A stretch of 14,833 nt of DNA from a virus: the UHGV virus genome UHGV-0120089; one strand, 5' to 3'. Positions within the stretch are counted from its first letter, which is position 1; each line of letters starts with the position of its first letter. Positions 241 to 9,526 of the stretch are shown piece by piece. Below the pieces are notes generated by a model that worked only from the letters and a program-made list of their open reading frames with translations, was not told the DNA's origin and made no database searches. The position numbers were made by a program, and so were the translations under genes.

Positions 241-480
241 ATGCCCCGAGACTACGACATTCCATATGCTTTCACGCTAGCCATCACACCAAACGCCAGA
301 GGTGTGCAGGTCGTCGCCACATCAGTATTCCGCCGTGAACTACACAAGCTTAATCACGACTGGACTCTGCAGCGCTGCAATGAGTGGATAATTAGCAGGC
401 AGACGTTCTTCGCGGACATCACCGAAGGTGATTCAGTTGATGGTACTTACGCGCTACGCAACATGGGGAGGGTTCTCTAA
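241..480 (+). CDS. Hypothetical 79-aa protein, first gene of an SOS-box bicistron
   Basis: ORF with a strong RBS at 7 nt spacing; its stop overlaps the next start (TAATG at 478-482), implying translational coupling. No family recognised. Confidence 0.55.
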   Translation: MPRDYDIPYAFTLAITPNARGVQVVATSVFRRELHKLNHDWTLQRCNEWIISRQTFFADITEGDSVDGTYALRNMGRVL

Positions 481-800
481 TGGGATTTCCTTCACCGGCA
501 ACTGATTATGTTGAAGAACGCATTAACCTCAACCGCATATTCATACCCAATCCAGCGAACACCTTCATGATTGAGACATCGACCGGCTGCATTCTGGTTG
601 ACAGGGTGGCTAAGGTTTCGCCTGGCGATTTGGTTGCGTTCCAGATGGAAGGCAATCCCATGCTTGGAAAATGGTACCCGAAGCACCTGATGACGGATGA
701 CGGTTTGATAGAGGGTGAGCAACTGGAAGAGGTAATAGTGCTGGGTGCGGTGACGGTGGAAGTGCTGACGCTGGATGAGAAGTGGAGGCCGACTATATAG
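480..800 (+). CDS. UmuD'-like (HumD-like) protein, S24/LexA-fold C-terminal domain lacking the N-terminal cleavable arm
   Basis: N-terminus MGFPSPATDYVEERINLN matches, from memory, E. coli UmuD residues 25 onward (GFPSPAADYVEQRIDLN), i.e. it starts where processed UmuD' starts. Downstream VSPGDLVAF resembles ISDGDLLIV. The GDSM serine motif is not obvious (ETSTGC instead). No umuC-like gene follows. Confidence 0.6.
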   Translation: MGFPSPATDYVEERINLNRIFIPNPANTFMIETSTGCILVDRVAKVSPGDLVAFQMEGNPMLGKWYPKHLMTDDGLIEGEQLEEVIVLGAVTVEVLTLDEKWRPTI

Positions 801-1413: not shown

Positions 1414-2592
1414 ATGGCTATAAGCGACACAAAACTGCGTACTATTTATGGTAAACCATATTCGGGCCCACAAGAAGTGGCTGATGCTGATGGCCTCAGC
1501 GTACGAATTTCACCGAAGGGGGTCATCCAGTTCCAGTACCGCTATCGCTGGCATGGCAAGCCTAATCGACTTGGGCTTGGTCGATACCCATCCCTGTCTT
1601 TGAAGGATGCCAGACAGATCACTGCTGACTTGCGAAAGCTCTATTTCTCAGGAACGGATCCACGCACTTATTTTGAAGAGAAGGTGGAGAACTCCATGAC
1701 GGTCGCCCAGTGTCTCGACTACTGGTTCGACAACTACGTCTCTACAACTCTCAGAGAAAAGACCCAGGCACTTTACCGATCAACGGTTATGAAGCGCATG
1801 CATGACGCCTTTCCTAATCGTCCGGCATCTTCTATCACGGTTAAGCAATGGGTTGACCTGCTTACCGAAGAAGAAAGAGATAATCCACGCCGAGCAAGGC
1901 AGGTGCTAAGTCAACTAAGATCAGCAATAAGTTGGTGCATGCGGCGTCAGTTGATAGATAGTTGCGCAATTATGAGCATCCAACCAAGGGACTTCGGCTC
2001 CCGCGCTGAGGTAGGGGATCGGGTACTGTCGTATCACGAACTGGCTAAGATTTGGCTTGCTATTGAAAGAAGCCGTGCGTCTACGTCAAATAAGCTACTT
2101 CATCAGATGCTTATGCTGTGGGGGGCGAGGCTCTCAGAGCTTAGGCTGGCAACAAAGACAGAATTTGACCTGCTGGACAACGTATGGACCGTACCGAAAG
2201 AGCATAGCAAGATGGGCAATGTTATCCGCCGTCCAATCTTCGAACAAATTAAGCCTTTCCTCGAAAAGGCCATGACAACGTATAATGATGTTCTTTTCCC
2301 TGGAGAAGACATAAGCAAGCCGATCAGCATCGCTGCAGCCAACCGATTCGTAAATAGAATAAGGGGAGGGATGGATCTAGGTTACTGGCGAACACACGAT
2401 TTCAGAAGAACGCTTGTTACACGTCTGTCCGAGATGAATGTCGAGCCTCATGTTACTGAGCGAATGCTCGGTCATGAACTTGGCGGGATAATGTCAGTAT
2501 ACAATAAACACGACTGGATAGAGGCTCAGCGCAAAGTGTATGAGCTTCACGCTGATAAATTGTTCTGGCACATCAGGAGCATTTCTGATTAA
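1414..2592 (+). CDS. int: Tyrosine site-specific integrase, P4-type (N-terminal arm-binding domain plus catalytic domain)
   Basis: 392 aa. N-terminal GLSVRISPKGVIQFQYRYRWHGK is typical of the P4-integrase arm-binding (DUF4102-type) domain. C-terminus carries the catalytic signature: R in GARLSELR, HDFRRT (H-x-x-R), and LGHELGGIMSVYNKHDW (His and nucleophile Tyr). Confidence 0.93.
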   Translation: MAISDTKLRTIYGKPYSGPQEVADADGLSVRISPKGVIQFQYRYRWHGKPNRLGLGRYPSLSLKDARQITADLRKLYFSGTDPRTYFEEKVENSMTVAQCLDYWFDNYVSTTLREKTQALYRSTVMKRMHDAFPNRPASSITVKQWVDLLTEEERDNPRRARQVLSQLRSAISWCMRRQLIDSCAIMSIQPRDFGSRAEVGDRVLSYHELAKIWLAIERSRASTSNKLLHQMLMLWGARLSELRLATKTEFDLLDNVWTVPKEHSKMGNVIRRPIFEQIKPFLEKAMTTYNDVLFPGEDISKPISIAAANRFVNRIRGGMDLGYWRTHDFRRTLVTRLSEMNVEPHVTERMLGHELGGIMSVYNKHDWIEAQRKVYELHADKLFWHIRSISD

Positions 2593-2764
2593 CGCCACCG
2601 TTAAGAATCCACCCCTCAACAGCTTCACGAAGGTATGATTTGGGGTGGGTTCTGACTGGCTTCGGAAATCCGTGCCGTTTGGTATAGTTCCAGATTGTCT
2701 GACGTGATGAAACACCGAGCTTGTTCATCACTTCTTTCTCAGGAATCAGGCTGGTATCGGTCAT
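2573..2764 (-). CDS. AlpA/Xis-family excisionase or transcriptional regulator
   Basis: 63 aa; the central stretch SSRQTIWNYTKRHGFPKPV resembles the winged-helix motif of AlpA-family proteins (e.g. LSRSTIYRLIKEGKFPKPI). Convergent with int, 3' ends overlapping by 20 bp. Confidence 0.75.
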   Translation of the reverse strand: MTDTSLIPEKEVMNKLGVSSRQTIWNYTKRHGFPKPVRTHPKSYLREAVEGWILNGGVNQKCS

Positions 2765-2824
2765 CTTAATTCTCCAGGCAAAAATAAACCGCCATATAGC
2801 GGCTCTATCAGATATGAACAGGCC

Positions 2825-3103
2825 TCATCGAGTGTGAGGCTGTATGATTCCATGGTTACCTCTGCTTTTTGAACGCATGTCACGTAACTTCTTAATGTGT
2901 TCTGCCGTTTCGATCTCTTCTGCTATCCGATCTGCATCAGCTTTATTCACAGGTTCAAAGTCATGATTAAAGCGGAACATGCTGGCGATACATGTTCTGC
3001 CTTTTCGGATGTAGTGAACTTTGTTGTGGGTAGAACGCAGGATTTTGCAGGGAGTGCCGTGGTGGTCGACGTACCAGGTGTTAGGAAAAATGATTCTGAA
3101 CAT
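2825..3103 (-). CDS. Hypothetical 92-aa early-left accessory protein
   Basis: ORF in operon orientation between excisionase and TraR-like genes; no family recognised. Confidence 0.5.
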   Translation of the reverse strand: MFRIIFPNTWYVDHHGTPCKILRSTHNKVHYIRKGRTCIASMFRFNHDFEPVNKADADRIAEEIETAEHIKKLRDMRSKSRGNHGIIQPHTR

Positions 3104-3150
3104 TTTTACACCTCAGTTGGACGATGTTGAAATTTGCTGCTTTGAGGCCA

Positions 3151-3369
3151 TCACAGTCCCCATTGTTTGTTCTTAAGTTCGATCTCCTCCTGGCAACTTG
3201 CACAAGTCCGACAACCCTGAACGGCCAGGCGTCTTCGTTCATCTATCGGATCGCCACACTCACAACAATGAGTGGCAGATATAGCCTGGTGGTTCAGGCG
3301 GCGCATTTTTATTGCTGTGTTGCGCTGTAATTCTTCAATTTCTGATGCTGAATCAATGATGTCTGCCAT
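3151..3369 (-). CDS. TraR/DksA-family C4 zinc-finger protein (phage TraR-like RNA polymerase-binding regulator)
   Basis: 72 aa with CxxC...(17)...CxxC (CCECGDPIDERRRLAVQGCRTCASCQ) and size typical of the TraR/DksA family. Confidence 0.8.
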   Translation of the reverse strand: MADIIDSASEIEELQRNTAIKMRRLNHQAISATHCCECGDPIDERRRLAVQGCRTCASCQEEIELKNKQWGL

Positions 3370-3417
3370 CTTTCATTAATCCCTGAATTGTTGGTTAATA
3401 CGCTTGAGGGTGAATGC

Positions 3418-3445
3418 GAATAATAAAAAAGGAGCCTGTAGCTCC
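3418..3445 (-). terminator. Rho-independent terminator-like hairpin on the minus strand
   Basis: Minus-strand reading GGAGCTACAGGCTCC followed by TTTTTTATTATT; lies between the 3468-3683 ORF and the TraR-like gene. Confidence 0.5.
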
Positions 3446-3467
3446 CTGATGATTTTGCTTTTCATGT

Positions 3468-3683
3468 TCACCGTTCCTTAAAGACGCCGTTTAACATGCC
3501 GATCGCCAGGCTTAAATGAGTCGGTGTGAATCCCATCAGCGTTACCGTTTCGCGGTGCTTCTTCAGTACGCTACGGCAAATGTCATCGACGTTTTTATCC
3601 GGAAACTGCTGTCTGGCTTTTTTGATTTCAGAATTAGCCTGACGGGCAATGCTGCGAAGGGCGTTTTCCTGCTGAGGTGTCAT
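3468..3683 (-). CDS. Hypothetical small early-left protein (71 aa from the MTPQQ start; a 93-aa form from 3749 is possible)
   Basis: ORF in operon orientation. Start is ambiguous: neither candidate ATG has a strong SD. Confidence 0.5.
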   Translation of the reverse strand: MTPQQENALRSIARQANSEIKKARQQFPDKNVDDICRSVLKKHRETVTLMGFTPTHLSLAIGMLNGVFKER

Positions 3684-3759
3684 TGAACAAGTCCCATGTC
3701 GGCAAGCATAAGCACACAGAATATGAAGCCCGCTGCCAGAAAAATGCATTCAGTGGTTG

Positions 3760-3951
3760 TCATACCTGGTCTCTCTCATCTGCTTCTGCTTTCGCCACCA
3801 TCATTTCCAGCTTTTGTGAAAGGGATGCGGCTAACGTATGAAATTCTTCGTCTGTTTCTACTGGTATTGGCACAAACCTGACTCCAATTTGAGCGAGGCT
3901 ATGTGCCATCTCGATACTCGTTCTTAACTCAACGGGAGATGCTTTGTGCAT
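3760..3951 (-). CDS. Small early-left protein, lambda orf63-like (63 aa)
   Basis: Position and size match lambda orf63 just upstream of orf60a-exo; sequence matches what I recall of lambda. Not verified. Confidence 0.6.
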   Translation of the reverse strand: MHKASPVELRTSIEMAHSLAQIGVRFVPIPVETDEEFHTLAASLSQKLEMMVAKAEADERDQV

Positions 3952-4106
3952 ACAGCCCCCCGTTTATTATTTATCTCCTCAGCCAGCCGCTGTGCTTTCA
4001 GGGGATTTCGGATAACAGAAAGGCCGGGAAATACCCAGCCTCGCTTTGTAACGGAGTAGACGAAAGTGATCGCGCCTACCCGGATATTATCGTGAGGATG
4101 CTTCAT
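3924..4106 (-). CDS. Small early-left protein, lambda orf60a-like (60 aa from the second ATG)
   Basis: ORF ending inside the exo start region; GGAG SD lies 8 nt before the second ATG (4106), giving a 60-aa product. Confidence 0.6.
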
Positions 4107-4783
4107 CGCCATTGCTCCCCAAATACAAAACCAATTTCAGCCAGTGCCTCGTCCATTTTTTCGATGAACTCCGGCACCATCTCGTCAAAACTCGCCATGT
4201 ACTTTTCATCCCGCTCAACCACGACATAATGCAGGCCTTCACGCTTCATACGCGGGTCATAGTTGGCAAAGTACCAGGCATCTTTTCGCGTCACCCACAT
4301 GCTGTACTGCACCTGGGCCATGTAAGCCGACTTTATGGCCTCGAAACCACCGAGCCGGAACTTCATGAAATCCCGGGAGGTAAACGGGCATTTCAGCTCA
4401 AGGCCATTGCCGTCACTGCATAAACCATCGGGAGAGCAGGCGGTGCGCATACTTTCGTCGCGATAGATGATCGGGGATTCAGTAACATTCACGCCGGAAG
4501 TGAATTTAAACAGGGTTCTGGCGTCGTTCTCGTACTGTTTTCCCCAGGCCAGCGCCTTAGCATTAACTTCCGGAGCCACACCGGTGCAAACCTCAGCCAG
4601 CAAGGTGTGGAAGTAGGACATTTTCATGTCAGGCCACTTCTTTCCTGAGCGGGGCTTTGCTATCACGTTGTGAACTTCTGAAGCGGTGATGACGCCGAGC
4701 CGTAATTTGTGCCATGCATCATCCCCCTGTTCGACAGCTCTCACGTCGATCCCGGTACGCTGCAGGATAATGTCCGGTGTCAT
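4103..4783 (-). CDS. exo: Lambda-type 5'-3' exonuclease Exo (Red-alpha, YqaJ fold)
   Basis: 226 aa; matches my memory of phage lambda Exo ([40 protein letters not shown]...) almost residue for residue. Start overlaps the bet stop (ATGA). Confidence 0.95.
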
Positions 4784-5565
4784 GCTGCCACCTTCTGCTC
4801 AGTGGCTTTCTGTTTCAGGAATCCAAGAGCTTTCACTGCTTCGGCCTGTGTCAGTTCTGACGATGCGCGAATGTCGCGGCGAAATATCTGGGAACAGAGC
4901 GGCAATAAGTCGTCATCCCATGTTTTATCCAGGGCGATCAGCAGAGTGTTAATCTCCTGCATGGTTTCATCGTTAACCGGAGTGATGTCGCGTTCCGGCT
5001 GACGTTCCGCAGTGTATGCAGTATTTTCGACAATGCGCTCGGCTTCATCCTTGTCATAGATACCAGCAAATCCGAAGGCCAGACGGGCACACTGAATCAT
5101 GGCTTTATGCCGTAACATCCGTTTGGGATGCGACTGCCACGGCCCCGTGATTTCTCTGCCTTCGCGAGTTTTGAATGGTTCGCGGCGGCATTCATCCATC
5201 CATTCGGTAACGCAGATCGGATGATTGCGGTCTTTGCGGTAAATCCGGCATGTGCAGGATTCATTGTCCTGCTCAAAGTCCATGCCATCAAACTGCTGGT
5301 TTTCATTGATGATGCGGGACCAGCCATCAACGCCCACCACCGGAACGATGCCGTTCTGCTTATCAGGGAAGGCGTAAATTTCTTTCGTCCACGGATTAAG
5401 GCCGTACTGGTTGGCGACGATCAGCAATGCGATGAACTGCGCATCGCTGGCATCACCTTTAAATGCCGTCTGGCGAAGAGTGGTGATCAGTTCCTGTGGG
5501 TCGACAGAATCCATGCCGACACGTTCAGCCAGCTTCCCAGCCAGCGTTGCGAGTGCTGTACTCAT
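4780..5565 (-). CDS. bet: Lambda Bet (Red-beta) single-strand annealing protein
   Basis: 261 aa; essentially identical to lambda Bet as I recall it ([66 protein letters not shown]...). Confidence 0.95.
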
Positions 5566-5570
5566 CCGTT

Positions 5571-5987
5571 TTATACCTCTGAATCAATATCAACCTGGTG
5601 GTGAGCAATGGTTTCAACCATGTACCGGATGTGTTCTGCCATGCGCTCCTGAAACTCAACATCGTCATCAAACGCACGGGTAATGGCTTTTTTGTTGGCC
5701 CCGCAGCGTTGCAAATGATCGATGCAGAGTGATTCAAACAGGTGCTGTGGAAGACCTTTTTCCATGTCGTCTGCCAGTTCTGCCTCTTTCTCTTCACGGG
5801 CGATCTGCTGGTAGTGACGCGCCCAGCTCTGAGCCTCAAGACGATCCTGAATGTAATAAGCGTTCATGGCTGAACTCCTGAAATAGCTGTGAAAATATCG
5901 CCCGCGAAATGCCGGGCTGATTAGGAAAACAGGAAAGGGGGTTAGTGAATGCTTTTGCTTGATCTCAGTTTCAGTATTAATATCCAT
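5571..5987 (-). CDS. gam: Lambda Gam (RecBCD inhibitor); 138-aa long form, with the short form starting at internal MNAYYIQ
   Basis: Near-identical to lambda Gam from memory ([61 protein letters not shown]...). Confidence 0.93.
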
Positions 5988-6085: not shown

Positions 6086-6218
6086 TTTTTGGGACTCCTG
6101 GCTGATTAAGTATGTCGATAAGGCGTTTCCATCCGTCACGTAATTTACGGGTGATTCGTTCAAGTAAAGATTCGGAAGGGCAGCCAGCAACAGGCCACCC
6201 TGCAATGGCATATTGCAT
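6054..6218 (-). CDS. cIII: Lambda CIII (54 aa; FtsH/HflB inhibitor protecting CII)
   Basis: Hand translation from ATG at 6218: [54 protein letters not shown], stop at 6054-6056; matches lambda CIII from memory. Below the ORF-track cutoff. Confidence 0.85.
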   Translation of the reverse strand: MQYAIAGWPVAGCPSESLLERITRKLRDGWKRLIDILNQPGVPKNGSNTYGYPD

Positions 6219-6290
6219 GGTGTGCTCCTTATTTATACATAACGAAAAACGCCTCGAGTGAAGCGTTATTGGTATGCGGTAACGCCGCGC

Positions 6291-6920: not shown

Positions 6921-7460
6921 ATGAGTAACTGGTGGCAGGAACTATTACGTTTCTTCCTGCGTGGTCTTACGCTACAACAGTTAATTCATATGCTTATTAT
7001 TTTAATTGCCTTGATAATAATCACCCCAGCATCAATTAAAGAGTGGGTAGATATAAGGAACCCCGAAATACTTCCAGATCACTGGATGTATTACGCAATG
7101 CTTTTGTGTATCAGTTATGTTCTGAACAGGGGGATGGAGTTTATATTTCTGGCATCTTCAGACAGATATAAAAAATATCTCAGTAAGAGAGATGAGGCTA
7201 AAGTAATTGTGGAGACTGAGCGCCTATTCAATTCTCTGAGTATTCAGGAAAAAGAGGTTTTAGCATTTGCTGTTATGGCAAATAACAAAATCGTACTTAA
7301 GCACGGCGATCCGGTCGCTTTATCTCTTATGAGAAAAGGCCTTCTCCATCGCTCAGGTGTGACTTACAGCGCGTCAGGTAAAGAGAAATTTGTTATACCT
7401 GACGTCTGGTTCCATGAGTGTTATATGCGCTTTGCTGGTAAAGCTGATGAGCTAATTTAG
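6921..7460 (+). CDS. sieB: SieB-family superinfection exclusion protein (membrane-anchored)
   Basis: 179 aa with a long N-terminal hydrophobic segment (LIHMLIILIALIIITPA); encoded opposite to the pL operon between the N gene and ea10, the position I recall for sieB in lambda and P22. Family assigned from position and architecture, not from alignment. Confidence 0.7.
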   Translation: MSNWWQELLRFFLRGLTLQQLIHMLIILIALIIITPASIKEWVDIRNPEILPDHWMYYAMLLCISYVLNRGMEFIFLASSDRYKKYLSKRDEAKVIVETERLFNSLSIQEKEVLAFAVMANNKIVLKHGDPVALSLMRKGLLHRSGVTYSASGKEKFVIPDVWFHECYMRFAGKADELI

Positions 7461-7482: not shown

Positions 7483-7755
7483 TCACCTCGCTGTCAGTTG
7501 TTTTGATTTCCGGTAGCCTGCCGCGTAAATGGCTACGTTTGGCAGGCAAATACTTCCACTGCATTCATCTGCCTTCTTGCAGCAAAGGCTTCCTAGCGAT
7601 GCTGCTTTGTCTGCTCTGACGCAACCAGAGAGCTTTAGCGCAATTTTTCGCGCCAGTCGCTGTTCTTGCATTGCCTGCTCACGTTGAGCCTGTCTGCGTG
7701 CTCTGCGGCGATTTCTGGTGTTATCGTCAGCCAGATATGTAATGACTACTGCCAT
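7483..7755 (-). CDS. N: N-type transcription antiterminator, P22 gp24-like
   Basis: 90 aa with an N-terminal arginine-rich motif (NTRNRRRARRQAQREQ). The C-terminal end VAIYAAGYRKSKQLTAR resembles P22 N (GVALYAAGHRKSKQITAR, from memory). First gene downstream of pL/nutL. Confidence 0.85.
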   Translation of the reverse strand: MAVVITYLADDNTRNRRRARRQAQREQAMQEQRLARKIALKLSGCVRADKAASLGSLCCKKADECSGSICLPNVAIYAAGYRKSKQLTAR

Positions 7756-7904: not shown

Positions 7905-7949
7905 TGCCAATCTGTTCCGTTTGGCTTCCAGCGTCCTGCTGATGGCTAA

Positions 7950-8035
7950 AGAATACTGTAGGTATTTTATTGTGTAAATACCCAAGGTATTTATTTTTGA
8001 TGAAATAATGATAAACAAATGAATACAAAGGATAT
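7950..8035 (-). promoter_or_regulatory. pL promoter with OL operators
   Basis: Minus-strand -35 TTTACA (7978-7973) and -10 TATTCT (7955-7950), 17-bp spacer. Three ATAC-N5-(G/A)TAT operator-like sites at 7953-7965, 7978-7990 and 8023-8035, resembling the OR sites. Confidence 0.6.
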
Positions 8036-8122
8036 TTATTTTTTCGCTGTCTGCTTGTTCAGTGATTTTTATGCGGGATATGTGAAGTGGATCCCGATAG
8101 CTATTGCTGCCGGGATTATGGG

Positions 8123-8491
8123 TTAGTCAGCGAAGGTTAAGACGAGAATTACCTTAATGATGTCTGCTACAACAGACACGGCCATAGATAAACCAAAGAC
8201 GATCCAAGCCACAGTGATGTCTTCACTACCATCGTATAGAGTTCCGTAATCACTGGTGTAAGGCGTAAATGTCGCGCCTTGATACAATAGGTATAAGCTT
8301 GATCCATAGAGGAAAAATGCAGATATCCCTTGTATTGCCATGATCACCAGAATCATGAAACGAGCTGATCTATGCGCCCAAGCCTGGCTTATTTTTTCTG
8401 ATAGAGATTTCGCAATAAAAGCATGCGCTAAGCAGTAAATTGTCGATATTGCCAACATCCCTAAAAAGCTTGCTATAGCGGTTCCAACCAT
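8123..8491 (-). CDS. Unknown 122-aa membrane protein with three predicted TM helices, co-transcribed downstream of cI (rexAB position)
   Basis: ATG at 8491 preceded by SD AAGGGG at 5 nt spacing, 17 nt after the cI stop. The track ORF begins at TTG 8512, an alternative start. Hydrophobic stretches VGTAIASFLGMLAISTIYCLAHAFIA, FMILVIMAIQGISAFFLYGSSLYLLY, ITVAWIVFGLSMAVSVVADIIKVILVLTF. No similarity to RexA/RexB recognised. Confidence 0.65.
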   Translation of the reverse strand: MVGTAIASFLGMLAISTIYCLAHAFIAKSLSEKISQAWAHRSARFMILVIMAIQGISAFFLYGSSLYLLYQGATFTPYTSDYGTLYDGSEDITVAWIVFGLSMAVSVVADIIKVILVLTFAD

Positions 8492-8508
8492 ATTCGCCCC
8501 TTGCGTGA

Positions 8509-9225
8509 TCAAACCAGTCTGAGTTTTGTCTCAATTGCAACGCCTATAATCTTGCAGTTTCCATTGATTGGCACGAGAGGCCATGCAGGATTAAGTCCCT
8601 TGAGGTATTTATTTCCGCCGTCGATTATCAGCTTCTTGAATGTTGCTTCGTTAGAGTCAGAAAGTTTTGCTATGACCAAGCTGCCGTTGATCGCCTCCCT
8701 TCCGGTATCGAAAAGAACGAATGTTCCCTCTGGAATGCTTAACCCAACCGGTGACGTCATTGAATCACCTTCCACTTTAAGCCAGAACGCATTACCTTGA
8801 ATATGCGCGTCAGACTCAAGCCAAACATCTATGTCTTTAATGGTGTATGGTTCGCATGCTTCACACCACGAGCCAGCCTGGATACTGCTTAACACCGGAT
8901 ACCTCTTTCCTGCTCTGTATTCCCCTGCATACCTTACGTTGGCATCGCTCTTAAGGCTTTCTGCCTGTTCTGCAACCTTGGCAGCAATTGACTGGCTAAA
9001 ATCAGCAATTGAGACTTGCAACAATCGTGCAAAACCAGATGCAACCTCAACGTTTAGCGCATTTCTGCCATTAAGATAATGCCCTACCGCTCCTTGGGTG
9101 ATACCCAGTTCATCAGCGATTGAGTATTGGGTTATCCCCAATTCTTTCTTTTTTGACTCATACAAAGCCTTAAGCCGCTTAGCGTCTTCGAGCTGTTCTG
9201 TCGTCAGTGATTTTTTATTTTCCAT
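8509..9225 (-). CDS. cI: CI-type prophage repressor (HTH plus S24 autopeptidase domain)
   Basis: 238 aa. N-terminus LTTEQLEDAKRLKALYESKKKELGITQ parallels lambda CI ([27 protein letters not shown], from memory). Ala-Gly cleavage site (SIQAGSW), GDSM serine motif and catalytic Lys (TFKKL). Confidence 0.92.
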   Translation of the reverse strand: MENKKSLTTEQLEDAKRLKALYESKKKELGITQYSIADELGITQGAVGHYLNGRNALNVEVASGFARLLQVSIADFSQSIAAKVAEQAESLKSDANVRYAGEYRAGKRYPVLSSIQAGSWCEACEPYTIKDIDVWLESDAHIQGNAFWLKVEGDSMTSPVGLSIPEGTFVLFDTGREAINGSLVIAKLSDSNEATFKKLIIDGGNKYLKGLNPAWPLVPINGNCKIIGVAIETKLRLV

Positions 9226-9261
9226 AGCTTAATTCTAATAGCTAAGGTACTTAAACTAAAA

Positions 9262-9302
9262 ATACCCTGAGTATTGATTGTTTTGAATACCTGTAGTATT
9301 CT
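9262..9302. promoter_or_regulatory. OR operators with pR (and divergent pRM)
   Basis: Operator-like palindromes ATACCCTGAGTAT (9262-9274) and ATACCTGTAGTAT (9287-9299). pR -35 TTGATT (9274-9279) and -10 TATTCT (9297-9302), the same -10 hexamer as pL. A third operator was not confidently located. Confidence 0.6.
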
Positions 9303-9331
9303 TTGTTCATGGTTAATAACGGAGAGTGCAT

Positions 9332-9526
9332 ATGATTCGAATGACACTTGCCGATTACGCCAAAATCCATGGACAGGCTAAAGCAGCCAGTGACTTTGGT
9401 GTAATCCAGTGCGCTATCAGCAAGGCCATTCTGGCAGGCCGTAACATTATGGTTACGGTAAAGCCTGATGGCAGTGTGATTGGAGAGGAGGTTCGTCCTT
9501 TCCCAAGCAACAAGAAAAACAAATAG
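9332..9526 (+). CDS. cro: Cro repressor
   Basis: From ATG 9332 (SD GGAGAG 5 nt upstream): [64 protein letters not shown], parallel to lambda Cro ([59 protein letters not shown], from memory). Confidence 0.9.

What the first reader, a model, noticed from the sequence alone, without database searches (positions are those of the whole stretch)
8123..8512. Unknown 3-TM membrane protein in the rexAB slot, translationally coupled to cI
In lambda the genes directly downstream of cI, expressed from pRM in the lysogen, are the rexA/rexB exclusion system, and this slot is a known moron/defence hotspot. Here it holds a single 122-aa, three-helix membrane protein with a good SD 17 nt after the cI stop, no resemblance to RexA or RexB that I can see, and no partner gene. 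It lies between cI and OL/pL and would be made constitutively in the lysogen. That is the profile of a lysogen-expressed superinfection exclusion or abortive infection effector; that role is inferred from position and topology only.
Basis: partly seen in the sequence, partly recalled or inferred. Interest (0 to 1): 0.78.

Follow-up and report, generated by a model that had tools for sequence, protein, structure and literature searches.

The report
HkaS: orphan prophage membrane protein after cI
The gene is real and is the already catalogued but never characterised hkaS of coliphage HK620, a small three-helix inner-membrane protein that always sits just after one type of prophage repressor gene, where other phages keep anti-phage genes, so it is a reasonable but untested candidate for a new phage-exclusion protein.

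Summary
A 122-aa ORF (ATG 8491 to stop 8123, minus strand) starts 17 nt after the cI stop, has its own Shine-Dalgarno sequence, and lies between cI and OL/pL with no partner gene. It is not a new sequence. It is HkaS of phage HK620 (96.7% identical) and belongs to phrog_6534, function unknown.

It is a real gene: dN/dS is 0.15 at dS about 0.7, and 78 of 79 readable viral copies are intact. AlphaFold (pLDDT 88.6) and hydropathy give three long helices. Charge distribution predicts N-terminus out, C-terminus in, a basic cytoplasmic loop and a conserved Tyr/Asp-rich periplasmic hairpin.

The family is an orphan. An exhaustive HMMER search of 1.84 billion representatives found one true cluster. 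Pfam, NCBIfam, PADLOC and PDB gave nothing, and there is no similarity to RexB or P22 SieA.

It is inseparable from this cI allele: the same 146 of 5,426 complete E. coli genomes carry both, as do loci from Salmonella genomes and loci encoding the Hafnia-named variant. It occurs in at least three phage genera with different virion-gene sets.

Other phages put rexAB, bstA, a restriction-modification pair, unrelated envelope proteins or nothing in the slot.

Function is untested. The best guess (about 0.4) is a lysogen-expressed inner-membrane block to superinfecting phage genome entry. Abortive infection, host-physiology and phage-lifecycle roles remain open.

The parts
8123..8491 (-). hkaS coding sequence (122 aa plus stop), a predicted 3-TM inner-membrane protein
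   Evidence: Translation. phrog_6534 E=2e-77 over the full length. 96.7% identical to HK620 HkaS. dN/dS 0.15. AF2 pLDDT 88.6 with three long helices. Hydropathy.
8497..8502 (-). Shine-Dalgarno sequence AAGGGG, 5 nt before the hkaS ATG
   Evidence: Read from the sequence. An AAGGx or AGGGA purine-rich motif is kept at the same place in the Salmonella-, Hafnia- and metagenome-type loci.
8509..9225 (-). cI repressor (238 aa, HTH_3 + Peptidase_S24), the upstream gene of the presumed immunity operon
   Evidence: Pfam HTH_3 8e-10 and Peptidase_S24 5e-24. 99.2% identical to HK620 cI. The same 146 E. coli genomes carry cI and hkaS.
8091..8116 (-). RNA hairpin 7-32 nt after the hkaS stop codon, a candidate 3' end or stabiliser of the cI-hkaS transcript (no U-tract)
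   Evidence: Centroid -13.7 kcal/mol, z = -2.4. Kept in Hafnia-type loci with a G-U to A-U change and a different loop. A different hairpin sits at the same place in Salmonella-type loci.
8011..8041 (-). Stretch annotated 'tIMM' in the HK620 record; it contains an operator-like site GAATACAAAGGATATTT (8021-8037)
   Evidence: HK620 annotation mapped onto identical sequence. The operator resemblance is my own reading (13/17 identical to OL1).
7943..7992 (-). OL1 (7951-7967), OL2 (7976-7992) and pL, the left boundary of the slot
   Evidence: HK620 annotation. Promoter-like site TTTACA-17-TATTCT at 7978-7950. Operator pattern gave 6 hits against 0.14 expected.
7483..7755 (-). N antiterminator, the first gene of the pL operon
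   Evidence: Pfam N_peptide 5e-14 and phrog_271 2e-32.
9236..9301 (.). OR1-OR3 region with the divergent pR and presumed pRM promoters, from which cI-hkaS would be transcribed in the lysogen
   Evidence: HK620 annotation of OR1-3 and pR mapped by offset. Operator pattern hits at 9259-9275 and 9286-9302. pRM itself is not annotated and was not detected by the consensus scan.
9326..9526 (+). cro, a co-inherited part of the immunity module
   Evidence: Pfam Cro 3.6e-26. It stays 79-87% identical in loci where N drops to 21-36%.

Best explanation
hkaS is the second gene of the prophage immunity operon of HK620-type lambdoid phages.

Shown:
- It is a conserved, selected gene for a 122-aa protein.
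- It begins 17 nt after cI and has its own ribosome-binding site.
- It is never found apart from this cI/cro/operator cassette.
- It is an orphan family.

Predicted:
- Three transmembrane helices, with the N-terminus in the periplasm and the C-terminus in the cytoplasm.
- A basic amphipathic cytoplasmic loop (K28-R44).
- A conserved Tyr/Asp-rich periplasmic beta-hairpin (LLYQGATFxxYxSxYGxxYxG).
- A strongly conserved third helix carrying D110 and K113.

Inferred:
- It is transcribed with cI from pRM in the lysogen (and from pRE during establishment), as rexAB is in lambda and bstA in BTP1, so the protein sits in the inner membrane of every lysogen.

Most likely function (inference only):
- It is a stand-alone superinfection-exclusion protein that acts at the inner membrane to prevent incoming phage genomes from crossing it.
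- It would do this either by interfering with the phage's trans-envelope DNA conduit or by occupying or altering a host inner-membrane component that phages use for entry.
- This is the way P22 SieA, T4 Imm, HK97 gp15 and DicB act.
- A protein of this size, with loops of only about 17-20 residues and no partner, has no room for a cytoplasmic sensor. That favours a passive block over a triggered suicide system.
For: - Gene reality and selection.
- Identity with HK620 hkaS and phrog_6534.
- Operon-like junction, with no promoter or terminator signal between the genes.
- Topology and fold. Loop 1 has net charge +3 to +5 and loop 2 has -1 to -4 in all five family variants.
- The periplasmic loop and TM3 hold the highest share of invariant positions (52% each, against 33-38% for TM1 and TM2).
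- The slot holds defence cargo in other phages: lambda rexAB, a P13374 restriction-modification pair, and BTP1 bstA. bstA is transcribed from the cI promoter in all 17 conditions, with reads across the intergenic gap (PMC7067206), and acts as an abortive-infection defence (PMC8585504).
- The cI-to-N region is a recognised site of mosaicism and morons (PMC7067206, PMC8585504).
- A 3-TM inner-membrane protein is sufficient for an injection block in P22 SieA (PMC10883804).
- There is no match to any holin, lysis, transport or other non-defence family.
Against: - No experiment or transcript data for hkaS were found.
- It has no sequence or specific fold similarity to any known exclusion protein: PADLOC best E=0.9, SieA hhalign probability 0.25%, RexB 0.2%.
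- Known entry blockers (SieA, gp15, Cor) travel with the virion or entry genes they protect against. hkaS travels with the repressor and occurs in at least three phage genera with different virion-gene sets (Lederbergvirus, Hendrixvirinae, Sepvirinae). Its target, if any, is therefore not obviously tied to one entry route.
- The two best-studied cargoes of this exact slot, rexAB and bstA, are abortive-infection systems, not entry blocks.
- The conserved periplasmic loop argues against a fast arms race at that surface. Amino-acid variation is concentrated in TM1 and TM2.
Confidence: 0.4

Rival explanations
1. Abortive-infection effector. HkaS oligomerises in the inner membrane and, when triggered by an infecting phage, depolarises or permeabilises the membrane and kills the cell before progeny form. 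The trigger could be a phage membrane protein, a holin or pinholin, or membrane perturbation during DNA entry. This would be a one-gene functional analogue of RexB.
For: - It occupies the same slot as rexAB and bstA, both abortive-infection systems (PMC8585504).
- It is a small polytopic membrane protein with conserved polar or charged residues inside helices: Q54, D110 and K113 are invariant.
- Its N-out/C-in 3-TM topology matches that of class I holins (holin topology from general knowledge).
- Linkage to the immunity module rather than to a virion type fits a general post-entry mechanism.
Against: - There is no sensor partner in the slot, and the loops are too short to form a sensor domain.
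- There is no similarity to RexB or to any PADLOC membrane effector. The best hit is a generic 2TM model at E=0.9.
- Constitutive expression of a self-triggering pore would be costly.
- It lacks the charged C-terminal tail typical of holins; the protein ends two residues after TM3.
Confidence: 0.17
2. Lysogenic-conversion factor unrelated to phage defence. HkaS is a small inner-membrane protein that modulates a host membrane protein (a transporter, sensor kinase or protease) or envelope physiology. It would raise lysogen fitness in the gut in the way small membrane regulators such as MgrB or AcrZ act on their partners.
For: - It is probably expressed in every lysogen together with cI (inference).
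- It is found in E. coli from humans, livestock, food and water, and in Salmonella, Enterobacter and Hafnia.
- It is under purifying selection with a conserved, slowly evolving periplasmic loop and TM3, as expected for binding a conserved host partner.
- Other occupants of the slot are envelope proteins of unknown role: an HK446/Sf6 gp38-like secreted protein, and the coiled-coil plus TM proteins of HK542 and BHUENT3.
Against: - No homolog exists in any host chromosome outside prophages, and no similarity to known small membrane regulators was found.
- No phenotype has been reported.
- The characterised cargoes of this slot are all anti-phage.
Confidence: 0.2
3. Function in the phage's own life cycle, tied to this particular repressor. 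Examples are tuning of repressor level or induction, protection of the induced cell from premature lysis or from its own progeny, or self-immunity. This would explain why hkaS is never separated from this cI allele.
For: - There is perfect one-to-one linkage with the cI allele in 146 E. coli genomes and in all other loci examined. The linkage persists over divergence at which synonymous sites are saturated.
- The conserved block is cro-OR-cI-hkaS-OL, while N and the replication genes are swapped.
Against: - Tight linkage is expected anyway for a gene 17 nt from cI that lies inside the immunity cassette. In lambda, rexAB likewise lies in the immunity operon with cI (PMC9836094).
- A cI with an 82% identical C-terminal domain works in phage BHUENT3 with different genes in the slot.
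- Related cI genes in mEp213, ST64T and the imm21 phage DE3 have no annotated gene there at all.
- hkaS evolves about 4-5 times faster than cI at the protein level.
Confidence: 0.1
4. A decaying or functionless hitch-hiker ORF, kept only by its linkage to cI.
For: - Within E. coli the ratio of non-synonymous to synonymous variants is high: 29 against 23, compared with 5 against 42 in cI.
- Pairwise dN/dS between close copies is 0.15-1.2, based on very few changes.
Against: - dN/dS is 0.15-0.22 over long divergence.
- 78 of 79 viral copies and the E. coli genome copies are intact at exactly 122 codons.
- Forty-eight positions are invariant across 54-100% identical variants.
- The start codon and SD are conserved.
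- The AlphaFold model is confident.
Confidence: 0.03

Closest known systems
HkaS of coliphage HK620 (HK620p19, NP_112052; phrog_6534)
   Same: It is the same gene: 96.7% amino-acid identity, the same length, and the same position between cI and OL. The flanking non-coding sequence is identical for 160 nt.
   Different: Only a few conservative substitutions differ (C20, M51, F60). The family has no assigned function, so membership names the gene but does not explain it.
Lambda RexB (with RexA), the abortive-infection system in the cI-to-OL slot
   Same: It shares the genomic slot and the presumed pRM/pRE transcription with cI. Both are small polytopic inner-membrane proteins.
   Different: There is no sequence similarity. 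HkaS has 3 predicted TM helices and 122 aa, against four hydrophobic segments in my hydropathy scan and 144 aa for RexB. It has no RexA-like partner. No internal promoter comparable to pLIT was detected.
P22 SieA (inner-membrane superinfection-exclusion protein)
   Same: Both are prophage-encoded, stand-alone proteins with three predicted TM segments and no signal peptide. SieA alone blocks DNA injection (PMC10883804). This is the closest analogue for the proposed mechanism.
   Different: There is no homology (no PHROG cross-hit). SieA is 162-164 aa with a roughly 50-residue soluble loop. It is encoded next to the ejection-protein genes with its own promoter and targets P22-like ejection proteins. 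hkaS is linked to the repressor and occurs in three phage genera with different virion-gene sets.
BstA of Salmonella prophage BTP1
   Same: It is a single gene immediately downstream of cI, transcribed from the cI promoter and highly expressed in lysogeny. The association with the repressor locus is conserved across genera (PMC8585504, PMC7067206).
   Different: In the papers read here, BstA localises to sites of phage DNA replication, mediates abortive infection and has a DNA-based self-immunity element (aba). HkaS is a small membrane protein with no similarity to any PADLOC model, and I did not look for an aba-like element.
HK97 gp15, T4 Imm and DicB (small inner-membrane or membrane-acting proteins that block phage genome entry)
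   Same: They are small prophage or phage proteins acting at the inner membrane that protect the cell without killing it. gp15 and DicB act through host inner-membrane entry factors. gp15 is described in PMC10883804 and DicB in the abstract of bioRxiv 10.1101/708461; the remaining details are from general knowledge.
   Different: There is no sequence relationship (no PHROG or Pfam cross-hits). They differ in TM number and genomic location. The targets of those proteins are defined, whereas none is known for HkaS.
Class I holins (for example lambda S105)
   Same: Both have three TM helices with N-out/C-in topology and a size of about 105-120 aa (topology predicted; holin features from general knowledge).
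   Different: HkaS has no charged C-terminal tail and no dual-start motif. It lies outside the lysis cassette, is placed for expression in the lysogen, and gives no holin PHROG or Pfam hit.

Membership tests
HkaS / phrog_6534 | Full-length sequence match to the family profile | tested here: met
   phrog_6534 E=2.1e-77, residues 1-122 on profile positions 1-122 of 122. 96.7% identity to HK620 HkaS.
HkaS / phrog_6534 | Position immediately downstream of an HK620-type cI and upstream of OL/pL and N | tested here: met
   The same arrangement appears in HK620, HK140, phi296, 611R6, the loci recovered from Salmonella genomes, from metagenomes (carrying the Hafnia-named variant) and from Logan assemblies, and 78 IMG/VR loci.
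Lambda RexB (Pfam RexB) | Sequence similarity to RexB | tested here: not met
   BLASTP E=9.9 and hhalign probability 0.2%. No Pfam hit at E<=1.
Lambda RexAB system | Adjacent RexA-like cytoplasmic sensor gene | tested here: not met
   hkaS is the only ORF between cI and OL. No second gene is called there in any homologous locus.
Lambda RexAB system | Exclusion of T4 rII and other phages with loss of membrane potential | not testable with these tools
   This needs infection assays.
P22 SieA family | Sequence similarity to one of the SieA sequence types | tested here: not met
   hhalign probability 0.25% against P22 SieA. No SieA PHROG hit. Only the P22 type was compared directly.
P22 SieA family | Inner-membrane protein with three TM segments | tested here: met
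   Prediction only: hydropathy and the AF2 model. Localisation was not measured.
P22 SieA family | Blocks DNA injection by specific phages; escape mutations map to ejection proteins | not testable with these tools
   This needs plating, K+ efflux and escape-mutant experiments, as in PMC10883804.
Class I holin | Three TM helices, N-out/C-in | tested here: met
   Positive-inside analysis: loop 1 is +3 to +5 and loop 2 is -1 to -4 in all variants. This is a prediction only.
Class I holin | Charged cytoplasmic C-terminal tail; gene in the lysis cassette next to the endolysin; match to a holin profile | tested here: not met
   The protein ends with ...LTFAD directly after TM3. The gene lies in the immunity region. 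No holin Pfam or PHROG hit appeared; the only lysis-category hit is an amidase family at E=0.2.
Known anti-phage defence systems (PADLOC-DB v2) | Match to any defence-protein model | tested here: not met
   The best hit is a generic '2TM effector' model at E=0.9 and 7.5 bits.
Prophage immunity-operon accessory gene (moron in the cI-to-N slot) | Located between cI and OL, on the same strand, with no intervening promoter or terminator; slot content variable among related phages | tested here: met
   Searches cover the junction. The slot holds rexAB, a restriction-modification pair, unrelated genes or nothing in other phages.
Prophage immunity-operon accessory gene (moron in the cI-to-N slot) | Transcribed in the lysogen from the repressor promoter | not testable with these tools
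   This is inferred by analogy with lambda rexAB and BTP1 cI-bstA (PMC7067206). No transcript data for hkaS were found.

The most novel reading that the evidence does not exclude
HkaS is the founding member of a new, structurally minimal class of single-gene prophage immunity proteins. It would be a 122-aa, three-helix inner-membrane protein with no homolog outside one repressor cassette. It would protect lysogens against heteroimmune phages of several virion types through a host inner-membrane step common to them, not through a virion-specific target. That would explain why it travels with the repressor and not with the tail or ejection genes.

A still more speculative variant (about 0.05) is that it feeds a membrane signal into the stability of this particular repressor.
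Probability: 0.3. Interest if true: 0.6.

Novelty: new member of a known kind. Interest (0 to 1): 0.4.

Why it matters
About 2.7% of complete E. coli genomes (146 of 5,426), plus Salmonella, Enterobacter and Hafnia prophages and some Stx2-converting phages, carry this gene in the position most likely to be expressed in every lysogen. Its function has stayed blank since HK620 was sequenced.

If it is an exclusion or abortive-infection protein, it adds a non-homologous, one-gene family to the small set of membrane-acting prophage defences. It would also affect which phages, including therapeutic ones, can infect such lysogens.

Its small size, confident model and strict genetic context make it an easy experimental target. 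If it is not a defence gene, it is still a lysogen-expressed membrane protein of pathogenic and commensal E. coli and is worth placing.

Tried and rejected
- **Remote homology.** None was found.
  - Pfam, NCBIfam and PADLOC gave nothing.
  - PHROGs returned only the family's own unknown-function group.
  - The word-indexed search of 5.8 billion proteins returned 11 clusters, all close relatives.
  - The exhaustive profile search of 1.84 billion representatives returned one true cluster, a 44-aa fragment, and a 5,949-aa RHS/YD-repeat protein. That protein's score comes from nine identical copies of a motif worth about 7 bits each, so I rejected it as chance multiplied by repetition.
  - PDB sequence search gave no hits at E<=10.
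- **Fold search of the AF2 model.**
  - BFVD and PDB Foldseek gave nothing at E<=0.001.
  - The afdb50 library was unavailable.
- **Direct comparisons.** RexB and P22 SieA showed no similarity.
- **Literature.** Searches for hkaS, HK620p19, NP_112052, phrog_6534, mEpX2, HK140, HK630, and HK620 plus superinfection found no functional data. The svsR sRNA paper (PMC12803456) concerns an element inside another prophage's cI gene and was set aside.
- **Horizontally acquired island of different base composition.** Rejected: GC is about 0.43, close to cI at about 0.46.
- **The 129-aa TTG-start version of the ORF.** Rejected: the upstream 7 codons overlap the cI stop and are not conserved, whereas the ATG and SD are.
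- **Rfam.** No RNA family lies in or next to the gene.
Full report
**What is in the window.** The window is the early region of a lambdoid prophage.
- Integrase at 1414-2592.
- Exo/Bet/Gam recombination genes at 4103-5987.
- The cIII thermoregulator RNA at 6173-6231.
- A SieB-family gene at 6921-7460.
- N at 7483-7755.
- The target ORF, cI at 8509-9225 and cro at 9326-9526.
- O and a DnaB-type helicase downstream.

The mechanical ORF 8123-8512 (minus strand) starts at a TTG that overlaps the cI stop. The conserved start is the ATG at 8491, giving 122 aa. The minus-strand junction reads TGA-TCACGC-AAGGGG-CGAAT-ATG, a 17-nt spacer containing a good Shine-Dalgarno sequence. No promoter-like or terminator-like site lies between the two genes on that strand. 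The one caveat is that the genes do not overlap, so translational coupling is a possibility, not an observation.

**Identity.** The protein matches phrog_6534 (unknown function) over its full length at E=2e-77. It is 96.7% identical to HkaS of coliphage HK620, HK620p19. The 160 nt after its stop codon are identical to HK620. The HK620 record annotates the same layout: OR1-3, cI, hkaS, a putative tIMM, OL3-OL1/pL, nutL, N. The exact window protein is in NCBI as WP_171934966.1. Every named member read from its 525-member 90% cluster and from the 12-member Salmonella/Enterobacter cluster is called 'hypothetical protein'. So the sequence is catalogued but uncharacterised. Literature searches for the gene name, its accessions, the PHROG and its carrier phages found no functional statement.

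**Is it a real gene?** Yes.
- Against the copy named for Hafnia paralvei, synonymous divergence is 0.69 and dN/dS is 0.15. The neighbouring cI has the same dS (0.74) and dN/dS 0.03.
- In IMG/VR, 78 of the 79 loci where the junction could be located keep an intact 122-codon frame; one is frameshifted.
- All 146 E. coli genome matches cover at least 80% of the gene at 95-99% identity.
- Among those viral copies hkaS shows 23 synonymous and 29 non-synonymous variants, against 42 and 5 in cI. The cI figure is biased downwards because the loci were chosen as the best cI matches.
- HkaS therefore evolves several-fold faster than cI at the protein level but is clearly constrained.
- Most changes are conservative swaps in TM1 and TM2. 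The end of TM2, the periplasmic loop and TM3 hold the highest share of invariant positions.

**Anatomy of the protein.** Hydropathy gives three segments at about 3-27, 45-70 and 92-120. AlphaFold2 on the six-sequence alignment gives pLDDT 88.6 and pTM 0.77. The model has helices at 2-29, 31-38, 41-73 and 89-121 and a short beta-hairpin at 78-86.

In all five sequence variants, loop 1 carries net +3 to +5 and loop 2 carries -1 to -4. The positive-inside rule therefore places the N-terminus and loop 2 in the periplasm, and loop 1 and the C-terminus in the cytoplasm.

Invariant features are:
- the amphipathic cytoplasmic stretch LSxKxxQxWxHxxARF;
- Q54 in TM2;
- the periplasmic motif LYQGATFxxYxSxYGxxYxG;
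- AWxxFG at the start of TM3;
- DIxKxIxVLTFAD at its cytoplasmic end.

There is no soluble domain.

**Relatives.** The family is an orphan.
- The word-indexed search of 5.8 billion proteins returned 11 clusters. Those that carry a source name come from E. coli, Hafnia and Salmonella.
- The exhaustive HMMER profile search of 1.84 billion representatives returned one genuine cluster, a fragment, and a repeat-driven artefact in an RHS protein.
- Pfam, NCBIfam, PADLOC and the PDB sequence search gave nothing.
- Direct comparisons with lambda RexB and P22 SieA were negative.

**Context and linkage.** Every copy examined has the same arrangement: cro, operators, a 238-240-aa cI called in some loci as 210 or 254 aa from alternative starts, a 17-20-nt spacer, hkaS, operators, then N.
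- This holds in HK620 and 611R6 (Lederbergvirus), HK140 (Hendrixvirinae), the Stx-type phage phi296 (Sepvirinae), the loci from Salmonella genomes, metagenomes and Logan assemblies, and the IMG/VR set.
- In complete E. coli genomes, hkaS and this cI each occur in 146 of 5,426 genomes. A 2.2-kb probe spanning both is at least 80% covered in the same number of genomes.
- The two genes co-diverge: cI 99/95/86/84/83% against HkaS 94-97/81/59/57/54%.
- N falls to 21-36% in the same loci, and the replication genes differ.
- The inherited unit is therefore cro-OR-cI-hkaS-OL, independent of virion type.
- The linkage is not absolute at greater distance. Enterobacter phage BHUENT3 has a cI whose C-terminal domain is 82% identical and whose N-terminal domain is only 38% identical. 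It carries two unrelated genes in the slot, with the similarity ending at the cI stop.

**What else occupies the slot.**
- Lambda: rexA and rexB.
- BTP1: bstA, an abortive-infection gene co-transcribed with cI (PMC7067206, PMC8585504).
- Stx phage P13374: a DNA methylase and a restriction endonuclease.
- HK446/Sf6 type: a 134-aa protein with a hydrophobic N-terminus that reads as a signal peptide.
- HK542/HK244 type: a 144-aa protein and a 206-aa protein with one hydrophobic segment near its C-terminus.
- BHUENT3: a CxxC protein and a 109-aa protein with heptad-like repeats and one C-terminal hydrophobic segment.
- VT2-Sakai: a 173-aa hypothetical protein.
- mEp213, ST64T and the imm21 phage DE3: no annotated gene.

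None of the three uncharacterised slot proteins I tested (HK446 gp39 and the two HK542 proteins) matches PADLOC.

**Mechanism.**
- Shown: a selected, membrane-type, partner-less gene placed to be read with cI.
- Inferred by analogy with lambda rexAB and BTP1 cI-bstA: expression in every lysogen.
- Not shown: any activity.

I commit, at about 0.4, to a stand-alone superinfection-exclusion protein that blocks genome passage at the inner membrane.
- The protein is too small and too membrane-buried to hold a sensor.
- It has no partner.
- Its most invariant surface-exposed element is periplasmic.
- Single small inner-membrane proteins with known roles in prophages mostly act this way (SieA, gp15, Imm, DicB; PMC10883804).

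Against this, known entry blockers travel with the entry machinery they target, whereas hkaS travels with the repressor across at least three phage genera with different virion-gene sets. In addition, the two best-studied cargoes of this very slot are abortive-infection systems.

The rivals are an abortive-infection pore (0.17), a host-physiology modulator (0.2), a role in the phage's own switch or lysis (0.1), and a functionless ORF (0.03).

**Novelty and verdict.** The sequence is known and the function is not. If the leading hypothesis holds, this is a new, non-homologous member of a known kind: prophage membrane exclusion proteins. That is useful but not categorically new. Interest is moderate at 0.4. 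It is a clean, cheap experimental target present in about 2.7% of complete E. coli genomes and in some Stx2 phages, but no evidence here points to an unprecedented mechanism.

Noticed in passing
window 8021-8037 (and 7998-8014): An operator-like site, GAATACAAAGGATATTT, is 13/17 identical to OL1. It is conserved in the Salmonella- and Hafnia-type loci. It lies inside the stretch the HK620 record calls the terminator tIMM, whereas the record's 'OL3' (tgatgaaataatgataa) looks unlike OL1 or OL2. The third leftward operator may be mis-assigned in the reference annotation.
   Followed up: partly
window 8091-8116 (-): A hairpin right after the hkaS stop has -13.7 kcal/mol, z = -2.4 and no U-tract. 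Hafnia-type loci keep it with a G-U to A-U change and a different loop. Salmonella-type loci have a different hairpin at the same position. It may be the true 3' end or a stabiliser of the immunity transcript.
   Followed up: partly
window 6921-7460 (+): A SieB-family gene (Pfam SieB 1.5e-19; phrog_1301 1.6e-93) lies next to N on the opposite strand, as in lambda and P22. It is a second candidate lysogen-expressed exclusion gene in the same prophage.
   Followed up: no
window 6173-6231 (-): The Rfam Lambda_thermo element (the cIII thermoregulator RNA) matches at 88.5 bits. It is the only Rfam hit in the window.
   Followed up: no
L095 (Enterobacter phage BHUENT3) 1941-3386: This is a mosaic repressor. 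Its C-terminal domain is 82% identical to this cI and its N-terminal DNA-binding domain only 38%. It is followed by two unrelated slot genes: a 127-aa CxxC protein and a 109-aa protein with heptad-like repeats and one C-terminal hydrophobic segment. Similarity ends at the cI stop codon.
   Followed up: partly
L100 (Stx2 phage P13374 of E. coli O104:H4) 2597-4278: A DNA methylase and a restriction endonuclease sit directly downstream of cI. This is a complete restriction-modification pair in the rexAB slot.
   Followed up: no
P0013 (5,949-aa metagenomic RHS/YD-repeat protein), residues ~2378-4481: It holds nine identical copies of SATFQTYSSGYTTLYEWKGANQIDVRW, which resembles the HkaS periplasmic loop GATFTPYTSDYGTLYDGSEDITVAW. 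Each copy scores only about 7 bits, so this is probably chance amplified by repetition.
   Followed up: partly
window 241-800 (+): Two adjacent ORFs (79 and 106 aa, abutting at 480) lie to the left of the integrase gene and have no Pfam match. It is unclear whether they belong to the prophage, the attachment-site flank or another element.
   Followed up: no
hkaS codons 10, 50-51, 93-94 (78 intact IMG/VR copies among L015-L094): Intermediate-frequency amino-acid polymorphisms occur at F10L (17/78), I50V (10/78), I51M (6/78) and the paired S93T/M94V (36/78) at the periplasmic edge of TM3. The rest of TM3 is almost invariant. This suggests two main alleles of unknown significance.
   Followed up: no
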